DNA from: Escherichia phage A5-4
Reading direction: 5' to 3' (one strand)
Sequence record: OP744025
DNA length: 64,000 bases
Made by a program: the position numbers and the translations under genes. The notes beneath the pieces were generated by a model. It saw nothing but the letters and a program-made list of their open reading frames with translations, was not told where the DNA came from and did not search any database. Shown piece by piece: positions 15,450-20,646 of the stretch (position 1 is the first letter of the stretch; the number at the start of each line of letters is the position of its first letter).

Positions 15450-16865
15450 ATGGCTTATGAAGATAAGGTAGTTGACGTCGAGGTAACGCTTGGCACTCAA
15501 CCTATTGATACCGTAGGGTTTGAAACCCCAATGTTCTTAGCAGTACACAATAATTTCCCTGAACGTCTCCGTCTGTACGGATCTGTGGAAAGTCTGGTTG
15601 GTGATGGATTTGCAGTTGGGTCCGCAGCATATCAATTCGCATCCAATGCATTTGGTGGGTCTTTTGCCCCACAACTGGTAGCAATTGGTCGTATGTCCAT
15701 GTCTGGTTCTCGAATCGACTTCACAGGCACTACCAATACCGAGCGTGTTGTGGTAAACATTACTATCAATAAGGTGGTAAAGGCAATAACTATCACGATC
15801 AACCCTGGAAACACCCCTGGTCAGATCGCAACTGCTCTTGCAGAAGGTATTAACAATGATGTAGATTTGGCTGGTCGCGTTACTGCAACTGTTGAAGGCA
15901 GTACAGTCGTAGTTGTGCAATCCGCAGAGATTATCAGTGTAGGTAAAGGCGAAGGTAGCTACAAGATTGTAAACACCTCTGTTGAAACTGTTGCAACTGT
16001 TCTTCCGCAGGTACTTGCTGAAAACCACAACTGGTACTTCCTGTCTCACGAACAACGCTCTGATGCAGATATCGTTGCAGCGGCTGAATTTGCACAAGCT
16101 AATTACAAACTGCACGTATATAACTCCAGTGACAGCGATGCTCTGGCAGCAGCTAACCAAAGCGCTTCCGTGTTTGATACACTGAAAGCTCTGGGTTACA
16201 ACTCTCTGGGTACTTACGACAAAGAAGCGGATGTAGAATTCACCGAAGGTTCTGTTATCGGCGCAATGGCTGCTAACGATCCTTCTTACGGTGACTCTAT
16301 TCACCTGAAGACAATGCCTGGCATGAAGCCTTCTACGATCTCCGAAACTCAGCGTAGCAACGCTTGGGGACGTAACGCAAACATCTATCGTGCAATGTAC
16401 GGCACTAACAGCTACATCGAAGGACGTACCTCCAGCGGTCAGTATGTTGACGTTATTCGTTTCTCCCATTGGCTTAAATTCCGCATGGAAGAATCTGTAT
16501 TCGGATACATGAAGCGTCGTTCTGATCAAGGCCAGTCCATGAAGATGAGTGATGAAGATCTTCCGGTTCTGCGTTCTATCCTGTTCAACAACCCAATCAA
16601 CATCGGTATTCGTAACGGTGGTATTCTGACTGGTTATGATACAGTGAACCGTGTGAGCTACGATCCAATCATTACTATTCCTCGTCGTGCTGAAATTCCA
16701 AGCAACGACTTGGCTAACCGTATCCTGCGTGATGTTAAAGTTGAAGTAGTTTACAACAACTCCCTGCACTACGTTAAAATTCGCGCTGCTGTTGTTCTGG
16801 ATCGTCCTCAAACTACGACCCAAAGCACTCAGACTTCTTTCACTACTTCTTCTGTAGGGGTGTAA
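15450..16865 (+). CDS. Tail sheath protein
   Basis: 471 aa; followed by 160-aa tube-size ORF, chaperone pair and tape measure (canonical myovirus order). Confidence 0.7.
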   Translation: MAYEDKVVDVEVTLGTQPIDTVGFETPMFLAVHNNFPERLRLYGSVESLVGDGFAVGSAAYQFASNAFGGSFAPQLVAIGRMSMSGSRIDFTGTTNTERVVVNITINKVVKAITITINPGNTPGQIATALAEGINNDVDLAGRVTATVEGSTVVVVQSAEIISVGKGEGSYKIVNTSVETVATVLPQVLAENHNWYFLSHEQRSDADIVAAAEFAQANYKLHVYNSSDSDALAAANQSASVFDTLKALGYNSLGTYDKEADVEFTEGSVIGAMAANDPSYGDSIHLKTMPGMKPSTISETQRSNAWGRNANIYRAMYGTNSYIEGRTSSGQYVDVIRFSHWLKFRMEESVFGYMKRRSDQGQSMKMSDEDLPVLRSILFNNPINIGIRNGGILTGYDTVNRVSYDPIITIPRRAEIPSNDLANRILRDVKVEVVYNNSLHYVKIRAAVVLDRPQTTTQSTQTSFTTSSVGV

Positions 16866-16868
16866 TAG

Positions 16869-17351
16869 ATGGCACTGAATCCTAAGTTAATTAGTCTCCA
16901 GGCGTATGACCCAGCCAAAGTCCTGATCTTTATCGGTGGTCAACGTGTTTCTGGATTCGCCGCTGATACGAAAGTCGTTGTTTCTCGTAACAATGATAAC
17001 ATTACCCCGCTGTCTGGTGTTGATGGTGAAGTAAGTTCGGCTATCGTTCGCGACAACTCTGGTGTAGTAACTATCTCCTTGCAGAATACTTCTGTATGGA
17101 ACGGTTATCTTTCCCAATGGCAGTTGCAAGCCCGTCTGACCGGACTTGTTTACTTCCCAATCCAGATTGAAGGTTCTCAGGGTCTGTCCTTGAACACCTT
17201 TGGTTGGATTCAACGTCAACCAGACCTGACCTATGGATCTGAAGTAGGGCAGATGGACTGGGAAATCGGCGTTGTCGATGCACAACTGAGTGCTGACCAG
17301 ATTCAGGGTGTTGCTGCCGGAATCGGTGGAATCCTCGGTCTGGATCAATAA
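16869..17351 (+). CDS. Tail tube protein
   Basis: 160-aa ORF directly after sheath. Confidence 0.65.
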   Translation: MALNPKLISLQAYDPAKVLIFIGGQRVSGFAADTKVVVSRNNDNITPLSGVDGEVSSAIVRDNSGVVTISLQNTSVWNGYLSQWQLQARLTGLVYFPIQIEGSQGLSLNTFGWIQRQPDLTYGSEVGQMDWEIGVVDAQLSADQIQGVAAGIGGILGLDQ

Positions 17352-17431
17352 TTACGTGAGCCTCAAGGATGAGGCCCTTCTCACGCAATGGATGATATTC
17401 ATATTAACAAGGTGGACACAGGAGTGTAAAC

Positions 17432-17902
17432 GTGCAAGGTTTTAAATTTAAAAAGACCACAGAGATTACTCTTTGCGGCGGTAAGCGATTCACAATCTAT
17501 CATTGGTCGCCTACTCAAGTTATCCGTAATATGCCTAAGATTGGTAAACTGGTAGCTGTTCCTTTGGGTACGATGGCAGGTTCTGCTATTTCCGGTGGAC
17601 AAGATTTTCAAGACGCTGTACCAACAGCAATTCTCTACATCTTAGATCGCATAGATGAAGGTGGTCTGGAAATTATTAATCTTCTGTTGGAAGGTGTAGA
17701 AGTAGACAACATGGGTGGCCCTATTGATATAGACGAAGTGTTCGATGGTCACGTAGAAGATTTGTTTAAACTGCTGGCAGAAATTATACAGGTGAACTAC
17801 GGCTGTTTTTTCGGCAAGAGCGGTTTCGGGACAATCGAAAGTCTCCTTCAGAAGTTCGGTCTGGTTCGCAAGGTGGAGCAACTGGATCAGACGGAAGCCT
17901 GA
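17432..17902 (+). CDS. Tail assembly chaperone (G-like)
   Basis: 156-aa acidic ORF between tube and tape measure; GTG start. Confidence 0.6.
   Translation: MQGFKFKKTTEITLCGGKRFTIYHWSPTQVIRNMPKIGKLVAVPLGTMAGSAISGGQDFQDAVPTAILYILDRIDEGGLEIINLLLEGVEVDNMGGPIDIDEVFDGHVEDLFKLLAEIIQVNYGCFFGKSGFGTIESLLQKFGLVRKVEQLDQTEA
17806..17812 (+). other. Candidate -1 slippery heptamer T TTT TTC
   Basis: X XXY YYZ heptamer in chaperone frame; -1 frame stays open to 18165. Confidence 0.45.
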
Positions 17903-18165
17903 GGCCGCTGAGTACAGTGGAAAGGGCCTTGGAGTATTGTAGAAAAAACTCTAGTCTGAAATGGTATGACTATCTCTATTTCCGTGTCATGGAGAAATTC
18001 AAGGGAGTTAACGAACTTTCTATCGAAAGTGGAGACATGGAAGACCTTCTTAAGAAGAATGAATATATCGATATTCAAGAATATTTGGAAGGGGTTCAAG
18101 ACAAAGAGAAGGAATACGAACGCCAGCGAATGGAACAAGAGGCCCAGTTGAAACGGAGAAAGTAA
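17809..18165 (+). CDS. Chaperone -1 frame extension (GT-like product)
   Basis: -1 frame open from slippery site through track ORF 17917..18165; Lys/Glu-rich tail. Confidence 0.45.
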   Translation, partial: FRQERFRDNRKSPSEVRSGSQGGATGSDGSLRPLSTVERALEYCRKNSSLKWYDYLYFRVMEKFKGVNELSIESGDMEDLLKKNEYIDIQEYLEGVQDKEKEYERQRMEQEAQLKRRK

Positions 18166-18176
18166 ATAAATAGGGC

Positions 18177-18210
18177 TGGAGTCGAAAGACTCTGGCCTTT
18201 ATTTTTATTA
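18177..18210 (+). terminator. Putative terminator hairpin
   Basis: GAGTC-GAAA-GACTC hairpin followed by TTTATTTTTATT. Confidence 0.5.
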
Positions 18211-18222
18211 TGAGGAGTCAAA

Positions 18223-20646
18223 ATGGCTGTTGAAGTAATTGCAACAACAAAGAACCGTGTCATATTTGAAACTGACAAAGGTTCCTATCGAAAAGCTCGT
18301 GAAGAGATTCGAAAACTCTCTAACGAATGGAAAAAGGCTTCAACAGAGGCTACTGCTGCCGGAAAGAATTCTCCTGCTGAGGCTTATAAACAATCTGCCC
18401 GTGAAATGCGATTAGTCAGTAAACGTTTGGAAGAAACTCGCAAACGTGAAGAGAAGAAAGCGACAGATTATCGTATTGCTCTGGCAAAGAAAGAAGCCAA
18501 GGCAAAGGAAGCGATCCAAAAGGTTTCTGCTGCAAAAATACGACAACAGGTTAAAAGCCTGACGGCTGCATCCCCTGGTTCTGCTGAGATGAGAAAGTTC
18601 TATCAGGAACAGGAGAAAGCTGCCCGTGCTGCTGCAAGATCTGCAAACCGTACAGCGACACCTTTACCGCCTTTCAACATTCAACGTGTAGAAGCTGCAA
18701 ACCAATTATTATCCCGTGGCAACAGAGAACCAGGGTCAGGGATTGTTGGAGATCCTAATAGTCGATTCAACCCTGAGTTAATTGCTGCACAAAACAGAGC
18801 GATGCAACGTAGTTCTCGTATCAAGGAGAGGATGCAGAAGCAACAAACTCAAGAACAGGAACGTGAACGTGTCCGCGCTGCTCGCGCTGCTGCCCGTATT
18901 GATGATGTTACAGCACAACAACGTATTCGTCTATCCTCCAGATATGGTCGTGGTTATGCAGGCGCTTTGGGTCGTGATTCAGAGGGTCGTGGGATTGAAG
19001 ATCTTAATAGACAATTCCGTGCGGGAACATTATCATCTGGACAATATCGACAAAGTGTTCAGGCACTCGAAAGACAATTTCGCGCCGCACAATCAAGTGC
19101 TGGGTCTTTCTCTTCTACGTTGAGAGATATTCGTTCTAACTTGGTAAGTGCTACGGCTGCATATGGTGTTTTCTCCGCAGGTGCATCAATCACTCGTCAA
19201 GGTCAATTCTTCGAAGGTATTAATGCAACCTCCTTGCTGATCTCTGATTCAGCAGAAGAGGCTGGTCAGCGTGTTAAGTTTGTTCGTGACGAAGCATACC
19301 GTTTAGGTTTGGATCTGAAAACTGCATCGCAGGGATTTACCCAGTTAGCGATCTCTGCTGATGGTGTTATTAGTAAATCTCAAACAGACGAATTATTTAG
19401 TGCATTTTCTGAATATTCCACCGCACTTCAGGTCGATCCCGTAAGATATCAGCGTGGCATTACAGCAATTCAACAGATCCTTGGTAAAGGTCAAGTAATG
19501 GCTGAAGAACTAAAGGGTCAGTTGGCTGAAGCAATTCCTGGTTCTTTACAGGTATTCTTGAAAGCAACTCAAGAAGCATTCGGCGACACCTCTATCGACA
19601 TTGCAAAATTGTTGAAGTTGATGGAAGATGGTGAATTGAAAGCCTCCAAGATCATACCCCTGGTTGGAAAATACTATGCAGAAGCTGCTAATAAGGGTGG
19701 CGCACTGGATAAAGCTTTAGAAAGTAACCGTGTTGCTTACCAGCGTTTAACTCAGACTTTTGCAGAGTTTCAAAACAGAATATTCCAAGGTGGCTTTGGT
19801 GAACAACTGACAAGAGTTTTCAATAACTTAGCTACAATCCTATCAAGCAATGGTAACGTTGCAAGCACCATCGGTAGATTCTTCGGTAACGTAATTGAAG
19901 GATTTACAGACATGGTTCTTGAAATACATGATAACCTTGTCCTTTTGGATCGTGTGGTGTCTTATTACTTCAAGAAAATAGGTGTTGAAGGTGATACTCT
20001 TCGTCAAGTGTTTGATTGGGGTTCTTATCTCCTTGGTATCGGATTGTTCCTCGGCGGTCTAACTAAAGTGTTTAATATCCTAGCTAAGATTGCAGGATTA
20101 AAAGGTGCACTTAAGGAGATTCGTGGAACCCTTGGTGGAGATTTAGCTACGGGTGGAAAAACCACAACTGGTGCAAACACTACAGCCTCTGGTGGCGCAA
20201 CTACCCCAGGTAAGACAAGTGTAGCTGGAAGATTCAGTCAACTTGGTAAGCTTGGTAAGCTTTTTGGCCTTGGTACGCTTTATTCAGCAGGGTCAGAAAT
20301 CAATGACCGCTTTATCCAAAGTGGAGAGAGCCGATTGGCTGGAGCAGGGCTTGACGCAACAGCTTTCCAGCAGCAATATGGTGTAACTCCACAACCTGTC
20401 GGGTTAACTGATGTGTTCAGAGAGTTGTTTGGTGGCTCTCGTGACATAACTGTAGATCCTAACACTATCTCGACTCCATCTGGTATTCGTCCTAGCGGAT
20501 TCCCTCTGGAGGCTCCAGCAGCACCGCCGGAAGGTAAGATCACTGTTGAGATCAAGAGTGGTGAGATTCGTCAATACATCCGTGCAATTGTGGATGAGGA
20601 AAACGGATTTAACATCAATCTGCTTACTCAAGGTGGTAACCAATAA
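18223..20646 (+). CDS. Tail tape measure protein
   Basis: 807 aa; coiled-coil A/R/Q-rich N-half, hydrophobic segment, Gly-rich C-region; follows chaperones. Confidence 0.85.
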   Translation: MAVEVIATTKNRVIFETDKGSYRKAREEIRKLSNEWKKASTEATAAGKNSPAEAYKQSAREMRLVSKRLEETRKREEKKATDYRIALAKKEAKAKEAIQKVSAAKIRQQVKSLTAASPGSAEMRKFYQEQEKAARAAARSANRTATPLPPFNIQRVEAANQLLSRGNREPGSGIVGDPNSRFNPELIAAQNRAMQRSSRIKERMQKQQTQEQERERVRAARAAARIDDVTAQQRIRLSSRYGRGYAGALGRDSEGRGIEDLNRQFRAGTLSSGQYRQSVQALERQFRAAQSSAGSFSSTLRDIRSNLVSATAAYGVFSAGASITRQGQFFEGINATSLLISDSAEEAGQRVKFVRDEAYRLGLDLKTASQGFTQLAISADGVISKSQTDELFSAFSEYSTALQVDPVRYQRGITAIQQILGKGQVMAEELKGQLAEAIPGSLQVFLKATQEAFGDTSIDIAKLLKLMEDGELKASKIIPLVGKYYAEAANKGGALDKALESNRVAYQRLTQTFAEFQNRIFQGGFGEQLTRVFNNLATILSSNGNVASTIGRFFGNVIEGFTDMVLEIHDNLVLLDRVVSYYFKKIGVEGDTLRQVFDWGSYLLGIGLFLGGLTKVFNILAKIAGLKGALKEIRGTLGGDLATGGKTTTGANTTASGGATTPGKTSVAGRFSQLGKLGKLFGLGTLYSAGSEINDRFIQSGESRLAGAGLDATAFQQQYGVTPQPVGLTDVFRELFGGSRDITVDPNTISTPSGIRPSGFPLEAPAAPPEGKITVEIKSGEIRQYIRAIVDEENGFNINLLTQGGNQ

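What the first reader, a model, noticed from the sequence alone, without database searches (positions are those of the whole stretch)
17800..18165. Candidate programmed -1 frameshift in the tail assembly chaperone pair
The chaperone ORF contains the heptamer T TTT TTC (17806-17812) in the X XXY YYZ register (codons TGT TTT TTC = C F F). The -1 frame is open from there through the downstream track ORF to 18165. A slip would give a G/GT-like pair, as in lambda and many other tailed phages, with an ~119-aa Lys/Glu-rich extension.
Basis: partly seen in the sequence, partly recalled or inferred. Interest (0 to 1): 0.5.

Follow-up and report, generated by a model that had tools for sequence, protein, structure and literature searches.

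The report
Tail chaperone -1 ribosomal frameshift site
This phage almost certainly makes a short and a long version of its tail-assembly chaperone by letting a few ribosomes slip back one base at a TTTTTTC sequence; this is a well-known phage trick that has simply not been annotated in this phage group.

Summary
T_TTT_TTC (17806-17812) lies in X_XXY_YYZ register in a tail assembly chaperone gene (17432-17902, Pfam Phage_TAC_15). That gene sits between the tube gene and the tape-measure gene of a Vequintavirinae-like E. coli myophage. The -1 frame is open from 17770 to 18165.

A slip would give a 244-aa fusion: 127 aa of chaperone plus a 117-aa extension.

The single-sequence evidence is weak. 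The comparative evidence is strong:
- All 43 unique T-type sequences keep TTT-TTC preceded by a codon ending in T, although that residue varies (Cys, Pro, Ser).
- Synonymous codon identity rises from 46% upstream to 99.5% at the heptamer.
- The -1 frame stays open through a variable linker of at least 12 different lengths.
- An R-F-R motif in the -1 frame is conserved directly after the site.
- Barbavirus-like phages carry G_GGA_AAG three codons downstream instead.

No conserved downstream RNA structure exists. An SD-like element lies 10-13 nt upstream in most lineages, but not all.

The homologous site is already annotated as a frameshift in the Felix O1-like phage Moogle (2015). It was proposed for Andersonviridae and Vandenendeviridae in 2025. 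No Vequintavirinae-type record inspected annotates it.

Verdict: real, ordinary, a new member of a known kind. There is no experimental proof.

The parts
15450..16865 (+). Tail sheath gene (context)
   Evidence: phrog_205 'tail sheath', E = 1e-105.
16869..17351 (+). Tail tube / virion structural protein gene (context; the likely partner of the extension)
   Evidence: phrog_280, E = 1e-38; Pfam KPP10_Orf10, E = 2e-9.
17432..17902 (+). TAC-N: frame-0 tail assembly chaperone, 156 aa, GTG start with an AGGAG SD
   Evidence: Pfam Phage_TAC_15, E = 8e-22; phrog_3840, E = 2e-63. SD energy -7.9 kcal/mol. In the AF2 model the folded core ends at residues 126-127, and residues 128-156 have pLDDT < 50.
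17790..17795 (+). SD-like AGGTGA, 10 nt upstream of the heptamer (possible stimulator)
   Evidence: Duplex with the 16S 3' tail is -8.4 kcal/mol, in the top 3.5% of positions in the locus. Most relatives have GGAGGT 13 nt upstream, at -10 to -15 kcal/mol. It is absent in Certrevirus, Mydovirus, 2L372X and Barba.
17806..17812 (+). Slippery heptamer T_TTT_TTC, the -1 shift site
   Evidence: In register. Invariant in 43 of 44 unique relatives, where the preceding codon is always NNT (TGT, CCT, TCT or AGT). Synonymous codon identity is 99.5% here against 46% upstream.
17812..17902 (+). Dual-coding overlap: frame 0 encodes the TAC-N tail (GKSGFG...LDQTEA); frame -1 encodes RQERFRD... and the start of the linker
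   Evidence: Synonymous codon identity is 62-71%, against 46% upstream. The Gly codon at +5 is GGT in 42 of 42 sequences, which fixes the -1-frame R-F-R motif.
17812..18165 (+). -1-frame extension of 117 aa plus TAA stop. With 17432-17812 it forms TAC-NC, 244 aa: join(17432..17812,17812..18165)
   Evidence: Open frame. The C-terminal ~80 aa match phrog_10409 (E = 2e-22) and phrog_8811 (E = 1e-20). AF2 predicts residues 1-33 disordered and then helices, at low confidence.
18172..18209 (+). Terminator-like hairpin with T tract, between the TAC-NC stop and the tape-measure gene start
   Evidence: 12-bp stem with 6 GC pairs. A terminator is annotated at the same place in rV5 and Murica.
18223..20646 (+). 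Tape measure protein gene (context)
   Evidence: phrog_5255, E = 1.7e-290; Pfam TMP_3.

Best explanation
This is a programmed -1 ribosomal frameshift in the tail assembly chaperone gene.

Most ribosomes read 17432-17902 in frame and make the 156-aa TAC-N. A minority slip back one base when tRNA-Phe occupies both the P site (UUU) and the A site (UUC) on U_UUU_UUC at 17806-17812. Both tRNAs re-pair with UUU, and translation continues in the -1 frame to the TAA at 18163-18165. The product is the 244-aa TAC-NC. It consists of the folded chaperone domain (residues 1-127), a disordered Gly/Ser/charged linker, and a helical C-terminal domain of about 80 aa.

By analogy with lambda gpG/gpGT and P2 gpE/gpE+E', the shared N domain would coat the tape-measure protein. 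The rare C-terminal domain would recruit the tube protein, and neither product would end up in the virion.

The slip needs no downstream RNA structure. An upstream SD-like element may raise its frequency.

Shown here: the sequence anatomy, homology, and conservation of the site and frame. Inferred: that the slip occurs, its efficiency, and the roles of the two products.
For: (1) Anatomy: the heptamer is in register and the -1 frame is open from 17770 to 18165.

(2) Identity and position: it is a Phage_TAC_15 chaperone lying between the tube and tape-measure genes.

(3) Conservation across relatives:
- 54 loci were found through the chaperone. They cover Vequintavirinae, Stephanstirmvirinae, Plateaulakevirus and metagenomic relatives.
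- 10 further loci were found through the extension only, a search that is blind to the slip site.
- All 64 have an in-register canonical heptamer and a -1 ORF running 63-98 codons past the frame-0 stop.

(4) Nucleotide-level selection:
- 43 of 43 T-type sequences use TTT-TTC.
- The preceding codon always ends in T, although it encodes Cys, Pro or Ser from two codon families.
- Synonymous codon identity is 46% upstream, 99.5% at the heptamer and 62-71% in the overlap.

(5) The -1 frame is under protein-level selection directly after the site: R-x-x-R-F-R is conserved, and Gly +5 is GGT in 42 of 42. In 2L372X and rV5 the -1 frame opens only 1-3 codons before the heptamer, which pins the entry point.

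(6) The linker takes at least 12 different lengths (30-54 codons), and every one preserves the frame.

(7) Barbavirus and a divergent relative have no T run. They carry G_GGA_AAG in register 3 codons downstream.

(8) U_UU.U_UU.C is among the motifs that are efficient in E. coli (PMC4066793).

(9) The homologous FF column in Moogle (same Pfam family; hhalign probability 97%) carries the same heptamer, and that record annotates it as a joined frameshift CDS.

(10) Gene callers start the downstream ORF at 6 or more different places in 13 close homologues.
Against: There is no experimental evidence here or in any paper found: no trans-frame peptide and no reporter assay. No conserved downstream stimulatory structure exists (z = 0.05; alifold finds 0 pairs), so efficiency may be low. 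In this window GTG 17917 has a weak SD (-5.6 kcal/mol, similar to the sheath gene's -5.8), so some independent initiation of an 82-aa product cannot be excluded. The chaperone-anchored IMG/VR scan used a peptide pattern containing FF, which biases that sample towards keeping the two Phe residues, though not towards their codons. The extension-anchored scan does not have this bias.
Confidence: 0.9

Rival explanations
1. The two ORFs are separate genes. The downstream ORF is translated only from its own start (GTG 17917, or ATG 17989 as annotated in phage A73), and the heptamer is just a Cys-Phe-Phe coding accident.
For: All 14 related GenBank records inspected annotate a separate downstream 'hypothetical protein' or nothing at all. 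GTG 17917 has a weak SD-like GAGG upstream (-5.6 kcal/mol).
Against: The start position is not conserved: there are 6 or more different called starts in 13 close homologues. The annotated ATG 17989 has no SD (-0.6 kcal/mol) and cuts into the conserved domain. The -1 frame is open and under amino-acid selection (R-F-R) 35 codons upstream of GTG 17917. Frame is preserved through a linker of variable length. Synonymous conservation peaks at the heptamer. The heptamer swap in Barbavirus also argues against this rival.
Confidence: 0.05
2. The frame change is made by RNA polymerase, not the ribosome. Transcriptional slippage on the T6 run deletes one U or adds two, producing a minority mRNA that encodes the fusion.
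For: The site is a homopolymeric T run, and such runs cause transcriptional slippage in some bacterial and phage genes (reviewed in PMC5009743). The title cited in PMC12846349 indicates that a non-ribosomal mechanism has been suggested for T4-like chaperone genes; that paper could not be read here.
Against: The run is only 6 T, and it is exactly 6 in all 43 T-type sequences, never longer. From general knowledge, efficient slippage usually needs 7-9 or more. The Barbavirus-like clade replaces it with G_GGA_AAG, which has no run longer than 3 but is the classic lambda ribosomal heptamer. The flanking Z base (C) and the X base are conserved, as expected for tRNA re-pairing.
Confidence: 0.04
3. 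It is a sequencing or assembly homopolymer error, and the true gene is a single continuous ORF (T7 rather than T6).
For: Homopolymer runs are error-prone on some sequencing platforms.
Against: T6 is found in 43 unique sequences from independent isolates and metagenomes. The frame-0 tail downstream is itself conserved (G-F-G...L-D-Q) and ends at a conserved position.
Confidence: 0.01

Closest known systems
Tape-measure chaperone frameshift of Felix O1-like phages (Citrobacter phage Moogle, KM236239, CPT_Moogle67/68; Ounavirinae/Andersonviridae)
   Same: Same Pfam family (Phage_TAC_15, E = 7.5e-20). The profile alignment (hhalign probability 97.3%, E = 2e-11) puts Moogle LEANFGSFF on the window's IQVNYGCFF. 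Moogle has the same T_TTT_TTC in register, GGAGG 13 nt upstream, and a -1 extension that starts R-x-x-x-F and ends in a similar ...DLL...Y[IL][DE]IQ... helix. It also lies in the same position, upstream of the tape-measure gene. It was annotated as a joined CDS in 2015 (PMC4319497).
   Different: Protein identity is only about 27%. Moogle TAC-N is shorter (133 aa), with just 14 codons between slip and stop against 29 here. It belongs to a different family-level taxon. The window's group has never been annotated this way.
Conserved 'GTTTTT' -1 PRF proposed for Vandenendeviridae (Pakpunavirus Adele) and Andersonviridae (PMC12846349, Dec 2025)
   Same: The same argument and the same motif: the window has TGTTTTTTC. 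An open -1 frame is kept across divergent alleles, and the downstream 'hypothetical protein' is reinterpreted as the C-terminal domain of TAC-NC. That paper notes that these families are related to Vequintavirinae.
   Different: That study did not examine the chaperone locus of Vequintavirinae, Stephanstirmvirinae, Plateaulakevirus or Barbavirus. It is also purely in silico. It does not report the G_GGA_AAG replacement or the upstream SD-like element.
Phage P2 gpE / gpE+E'
   Same: P2 is a myovirus with the order sheath-tube-chaperone-tape measure. It uses a -1 shift on a T6 heptamer (TTTTTTG) with no downstream structure (PMC3091744, citing Christie 2002 and Xu 2004).
   Different: No detectable sequence homology was tested or found. 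P2 E is 91 aa. The Z base is G, not C.
Phage lambda gpG / gpGT
   Same: This is the functional paradigm. A -1 slip late in the chaperone gene gives a roughly 30:1 ratio of short to long product. The G part binds the tape-measure protein and the T part binds the major tail protein, and neither is in the virion (PMC5009743). The Barbavirus-like relatives use lambda's own heptamer, G_GGA_AAG.
   Different: Lambda is a siphovirus with a different chaperone family and a different heptamer from the window's. In lambda the slip lies very near the end of G (from memory). Here it lies 29 codons before the stop, at the edge of the folded domain, so TAC-N has its own conserved 29-aa tail.

Membership tests
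G/GT-type tail assembly chaperone with programmed -1 frameshift (Xu, Hendrix & Duda 2004) | Gene pair located between the major tail (tube) gene and the tape-measure gene | tested here: met
   Tube 16869-17351, chaperone 17432-17902, -1 ORF to 18165, tape-measure gene 18223-20646.
G/GT-type tail assembly chaperone with programmed -1 frameshift (Xu, Hendrix & Duda 2004) | The upstream ORF belongs to a recognised tail assembly chaperone family | tested here: met
   Pfam PF21822 Phage_TAC_15: 78.6 bits against a cut-off of 22, E = 8e-22. phrog_3840 'tail assembly chaperone', E = 2e-63. The fold search against PDB was uninformative.
G/GT-type tail assembly chaperone with programmed -1 frameshift (Xu, Hendrix & Duda 2004) | Canonical X_XXY_YYZ heptamer in the frame-0 register, inside the overlap of the two frames | tested here: met
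   T_TTT_TTC at 17806-17812 is the only in-register heptamer in the 17770-17902 overlap.
G/GT-type tail assembly chaperone with programmed -1 frameshift (Xu, Hendrix & Duda 2004) | Heptamer and frame relationship conserved in divergent relatives, beyond what protein coding requires | tested here: met
   All 64 related loci keep it. There are 43 unique T_TTT_TTC sequences plus a G_GGA_AAG clade. Synonymous identity is 99.5% at the site against 46% upstream. At least 12 linker lengths all stay in frame.
G/GT-type tail assembly chaperone with programmed -1 frameshift (Xu, Hendrix & Duda 2004) | The downstream ORF lacks its own conserved translation start | tested here: inconclusive
   No conserved start column exists, and called starts are scattered. 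ATG 17989 has no SD. GTG 17917 in this window has a weak SD, -5.6 kcal/mol.
G/GT-type tail assembly chaperone with programmed -1 frameshift (Xu, Hendrix & Duda 2004) | The fusion protein is actually made at a low fixed ratio and is required for tail assembly | not testable with these tools
   This needs proteomics, a reporter assay or genetics. No paper found reports it for this phage group.
Phage_TAC_15 T_TTT_TTC site (Felix O1 / Moogle type) | The slip site sits at the homologous alignment column (...N-[YF]-G-x-F-F) of the same protein family | tested here: met
   hhalign of the chaperone alignment against Moogle TAC-N gives probability 97.3% and aligns the FF columns. Both carry TTTTTTC in register.
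dnaX / IS-type stimulated -1 PRF | SD-like sequence about 6-17 nt upstream of the heptamer | tested here: inconclusive
   The window has AGGTGA 10 nt upstream (-8.4 kcal/mol, top 3.5%). It is strong in most lineages but absent in four, and it is confounded by the conserved L-E-V-N codons.
dnaX / IS-type stimulated -1 PRF | Stable downstream hairpin or pseudoknot | tested here: not met
   MFE is -19.5 kcal/mol against a shuffle mean of -19.65 (z = 0.05). RNAalifold on 10 diverse relatives gives 0 pairs.
Transcriptional slippage site | Long homopolymer run whose length, not its codon register, is what is conserved | tested here: not met
   The run is exactly T6 everywhere, and one clade replaces it with GGGAAAG.

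The most novel reading that the evidence does not exclude
The site may be more than a copy of lambda G/GT. It lies exactly at the end of the folded chaperone domain, 29 codons before the stop. Ribosomes therefore choose between two alternative, separately conserved C-terminal modules encoded in about 90 nt of dual-coding sequence. The upstream SD-like element (strong, weak or absent depending on lineage) and the choice of heptamer (T_TTT_TTC or G_GGA_AAG) could act as evolvable settings for the TAC-N:TAC-NC ratio. The terminator directly after the -1 stop could separately limit tape-measure expression.
Probability: 0.3. Interest if true: 0.35.

Novelty: new member of a known kind. Interest (0 to 1): 0.22.

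Why it matters
The main value is for annotation. None of the 14 related GenBank or RefSeq records inspected annotates a slippage product. These include rV5, CR3, phi92-like and phAPEC8-like phages, several of which are of interest for phage therapy. None of the 45 closest protein clusters in a 5.8-billion-protein collection contains a fused product either. Instead the C-terminal domain is called as a 'hypothetical protein' with inconsistent starts.

Recognising one conserved site, join(17432..17812,17812..18165), fixes that across several genera. It also extends the frameshift recently proposed for Andersonviridae and Vandenendeviridae to Vequintavirinae, Stephanstirmvirinae, Plateaulakevirus and Barbavirus, which supports a common origin for this tail module.

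The natural swap between T_TTT_TTC and G_GGA_AAG, and the variable upstream SD-like element, give a ready-made comparative series for anyone measuring how phages tune frameshift efficiency. The finding does not change what is understood about recoding or tail assembly.

Tried and rejected
- **Downstream stimulatory structure.** Folding 17813-17890 and 17813-17860 gave energies no better than shuffles (z = 0.05 and 0.73). RNAalifold on 10 diverse relatives predicted no pairs. Rejected.
  - The extension alone gave a low-confidence model (pLDDT 56), so no fold search was run on it.
  - TAC-N gave pLDDT 67. Foldseek against PDB gave nothing significant: best E = 1.4, with the HK97 chaperone 2ob9 only at rank 14 (E = 4.7).
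- **Sequence search of the fusion against PDB chains.** Nothing below E = 0.3.
- **Slip-site-blind scan with the N-terminal part of the chaperone.** The alignment was too divergent to yield a search pattern. It was replaced by a scan anchored on the extension.
- **Literature.** No paper in the library links rV5-like or Vequintavirus phages with a chaperone frameshift. The rV5 genome and proteome paper never mentions a frameshift. Vladimirov et al. 2022 on T4-like chaperone genes is not held.
- **Phage-encoded tRNA-Phe.** None is present in the window.
- **Other heptamers or a +1 shift.** There is no other in-register heptamer in the overlap, and the +1 frame runs only 12 codons past the stop.

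Full report
**What the window is.** The region is 99.5% identical to Escherichia phages A73 and W70 (unclassified Vequintavirinae). It is more distantly related to CR3 and phiTE (Certrevirus) and to rV5. The local gene order is typical of a contractile tail module:
- sheath, 15450-16865
- tube, 16869-17351
- a 156-aa ORF, 17432-17902
- an 82-aa ORF in another frame, ending at 18165
- tape measure, 18223-20646

The 156-aa ORF is a tail assembly chaperone: Pfam Phage_TAC_15 at E = 8e-22 and phrog_3840 at E = 2e-63. The C-terminal ~80 residues of the downstream ORF match two PHROG families of unknown function. It is therefore a real, conserved coding sequence.

**Checking the observation.** Codons 17804-17812 are TGT TTT TTC, so TTTTTTC at 17806-17812 is in X_XXY_YYZ register. 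The -1 frame is open from 17770 to the TAA at 18163-18165. A slip gives ...NYGCFF|RQERFRD... and a 244-aa product, 127 + 117 aa.

On its own the heptamer is not remarkable. The window has 58 in-register XXXYYYZ heptamers in about 20,000 ORF codons, so about 0.13 are expected in this overlap. It is, however, the only one followed by a long -1 ORF that passes the frame-0 stop.

**Comparative evidence.** I collected the locus from three sources:
- 14 GenBank phages
- 40 IMG/VR contigs found through the chaperone
- 29 IMG/VR contigs found through the extension only, 10 of them new; this scan is blind to the slip site

Chaperone identity to the window ranges from 99% down to about 27%. The set spans Vequintavirinae (Vequintavirus, Certrevirus, Seunavirus, Mydovirus, Henunavirus), Stephanstirmvirinae (phi92-like and phAPEC8-like), Plateaulakevirus, Barbavirus and unclassified metagenomic lineages.

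Every locus has an in-register canonical heptamer at the same place. Every locus also has a -1 ORF extending 63-98 codons beyond the frame-0 stop.

Among 44 unique sequences, 43 have TTT-TTC. The preceding codon always ends in T (TGT, CCT, TCT or AGT), even though it encodes Cys, Pro or Ser. Among same-amino-acid pairs, synonymous codon identity is:
- 46% in the chaperone body
- 99.5% at the three heptamer codons
- 62-71% in the overlap downstream

Five codons after the site, a Gly codon is GGT in 42 of 42 sequences. This fixes an R-F-R motif in the -1 frame. The -1 frame is therefore under protein-level selection about 35 codons upstream of any candidate start for the downstream ORF. In Aeromonas phage 2L372X and in rV5 the -1 frame opens only 1 and 3 codons before the heptamer, which pins where the frame is entered.

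Between the R-F-R motif and the conserved C-terminal domain lies a Gly/Ser/Asp-rich linker. It takes at least 12 different lengths, and none breaks the frame.

**The heptamer swap.** Rheinheimera Barbavirus phages and a divergent metagenomic relative (L084) have no Phe-Phe and no T run (YGCLTSGKSF and YGCIISGKGF). Three codons downstream they carry G_GGA_AAG, in register and with the -1 frame open. The same F-R motif follows the slip. G_GGA_AAG is the lambda G/GT heptamer. Replacing one canonical tRNA-slippage motif with another is what ribosomal frameshifting predicts. It is hard to reconcile with RNA-polymerase slippage on a homopolymer, or with two independent genes.

**Stimulators.** There is no downstream structure. 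The 78 nt after the site fold no better than shuffles (z = 0.05), and RNAalifold on ten diverse relatives predicts nothing. P2 also has none (PMC3091744).

Upstream, most lineages have GGAGGT 13 nt before the heptamer, with duplex energies of -10 to -15 kcal/mol against the 16S 3' tail (top 0.2-3% of positions in each locus). The window has the weaker AGGTGA 10 nt upstream (-8.4 kcal/mol, top 3.5%). Certrevirus, Mydovirus, 2L372X and Barbavirus have nothing.

This resembles the SD stimulator of dnaX and IS elements. It is not universal, and it overlaps conserved Leu-Glu-Val-Asn codons, so I treat it only as a possible modulator. In E. coli, U_UU.U_UU.C belongs to the efficient class of heptamers, because the A-site tRNA re-pairs cognately (PMC4066793).

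**Rivals.**
- *Separate initiation.* This is what all current annotations imply. In the window GTG 17917 has a weak SD (-5.6 kcal/mol), and the ATG used in A73 has none. Called starts fall at six or more positions in 13 close homologues, and rV5's gp050 was simply extended back to the heptamer. None of this explains the conservation upstream of those starts.
- *Transcriptional slippage.* The swap to GGGAAAG argues against it, as does the fact that the run is always exactly T6.
- *Homopolymer sequencing error.* This is excluded by 43 independent sequences and by a conserved frame-0 tail.

**Structure.** AF2 on TAC-N (pLDDT 67) shows a folded core ending at residues 126-127, exactly the Phe-Phe. 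The frame-0 tail has low confidence. The extension model is poor (pLDDT 56) but suggests about 33 disordered residues followed by helices. The slip thus sits at a domain boundary and swaps one C-terminal module for another. Fold and sequence searches against solved structures were uninformative.

**Comparison with what is known.** The mechanism is the classic tail-chaperone frameshift of lambda G/GT and P2 E/E+E' (PMC5009743; PMC3091744).

The site itself is also already known in a sister lineage. Felix O1-like phage Moogle annotates its 'tape measure chaperone' as a joined CDS. Its TAC-N belongs to the same Pfam family. A profile alignment (probability 97%) superimposes its LEANFGSFF on the window's IQVNYGCFF. 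It carries the same T_TTT_TTC, with GGAGG 13 nt upstream.

A December 2025 paper proposed, in silico, a conserved 'GTTTTT' -1 frameshift for Vandenendeviridae and Andersonviridae. It noted that these families are related to Vequintavirinae but did not examine their chaperone locus (PMC12846349).

None of the 14 related records I opened annotates slippage. None of the 45 closest protein clusters in the 5.8-billion-protein collection covers more than 54% of the fusion.

**Verdict.** This is a new, unannotated member of a well-known kind. Its value lies in annotation and in the natural variation of heptamer and SD-like element across the family. Interest is low to moderate.

Noticed in passing
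window 18172-18209: A strong terminator-like hairpin (12-bp stem plus T tract) sits between the stop of the -1 ORF (18165) and the tape-measure start (18223). The rV5 and Murica records annotate a terminator at the same place. The chaperone pair and the tape-measure gene may therefore be partly uncoupled at the level of transcription.
   Followed up: partly
L014 1486-1492; L083 1441-1447; L084 1432-1438: Barbavirus-like phages replace T_TTT_TTC with the lambda heptamer G_GGA_AAG, three codons downstream in the same chaperone family. This is a natural swap of slippery sequence.
   Followed up: yes
window 17790-17795, and the homologous position in relatives: An SD-like element (GGAGGT, or AGGTGA in the window) lies 10-13 nt upstream of the heptamer in most lineages, Moogle included. 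It is absent in Certrevirus, Mydovirus, 2L372X and Barbavirus.
   Followed up: partly
L008, L009, L037-L053 (phi92-like and phAPEC8-like loci): Stephanstirmvirinae-type relatives have two overlapping in-register heptamers, C_CCT_TTT followed by T_TTT_TTC. A slip on either gives the same protein.
   Followed up: no
GenBank MG0656xx records (H50, H51; H89, H100, H107): About 23 records named 'Campylobacter phage' carry an rV5-type chaperone locus that scores the same as E. coli Vequintavirus phages. The host label looks doubtful.
   Followed up: no
OY978796.1 (H38): The chaperone homologue in Klebsiella phage vB_Kpn_K45PH128C2 is labelled 'HNH endonuclease', probably a mis-annotation.
   Followed up: no
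window 17917-18165 and homologues: Annotators and gene callers start the downstream ORF at many different positions: ATG 17989 in A73, GTG 17917 by ORF scan, back at the heptamer in rV5 gp050, and six or more positions in 13 close homologues.
   Followed up: yes
window 17357-17385: An imperfect GC-rich inverted repeat (GTGAGCCTCAAGGATGAGGCCCTTCTCAC) lies just after the tube gene stop. Murica annotates a terminator at the equivalent place and rV5 annotates a promoter upstream of the chaperone gene. The consensus scan here did not flag it.
   Followed up: no
window 1-64000: ARAGORN finds no tRNA gene anywhere in the 64-kb window, so no phage tRNA-Phe is encoded here that could influence the slip.
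   Followed up: yes
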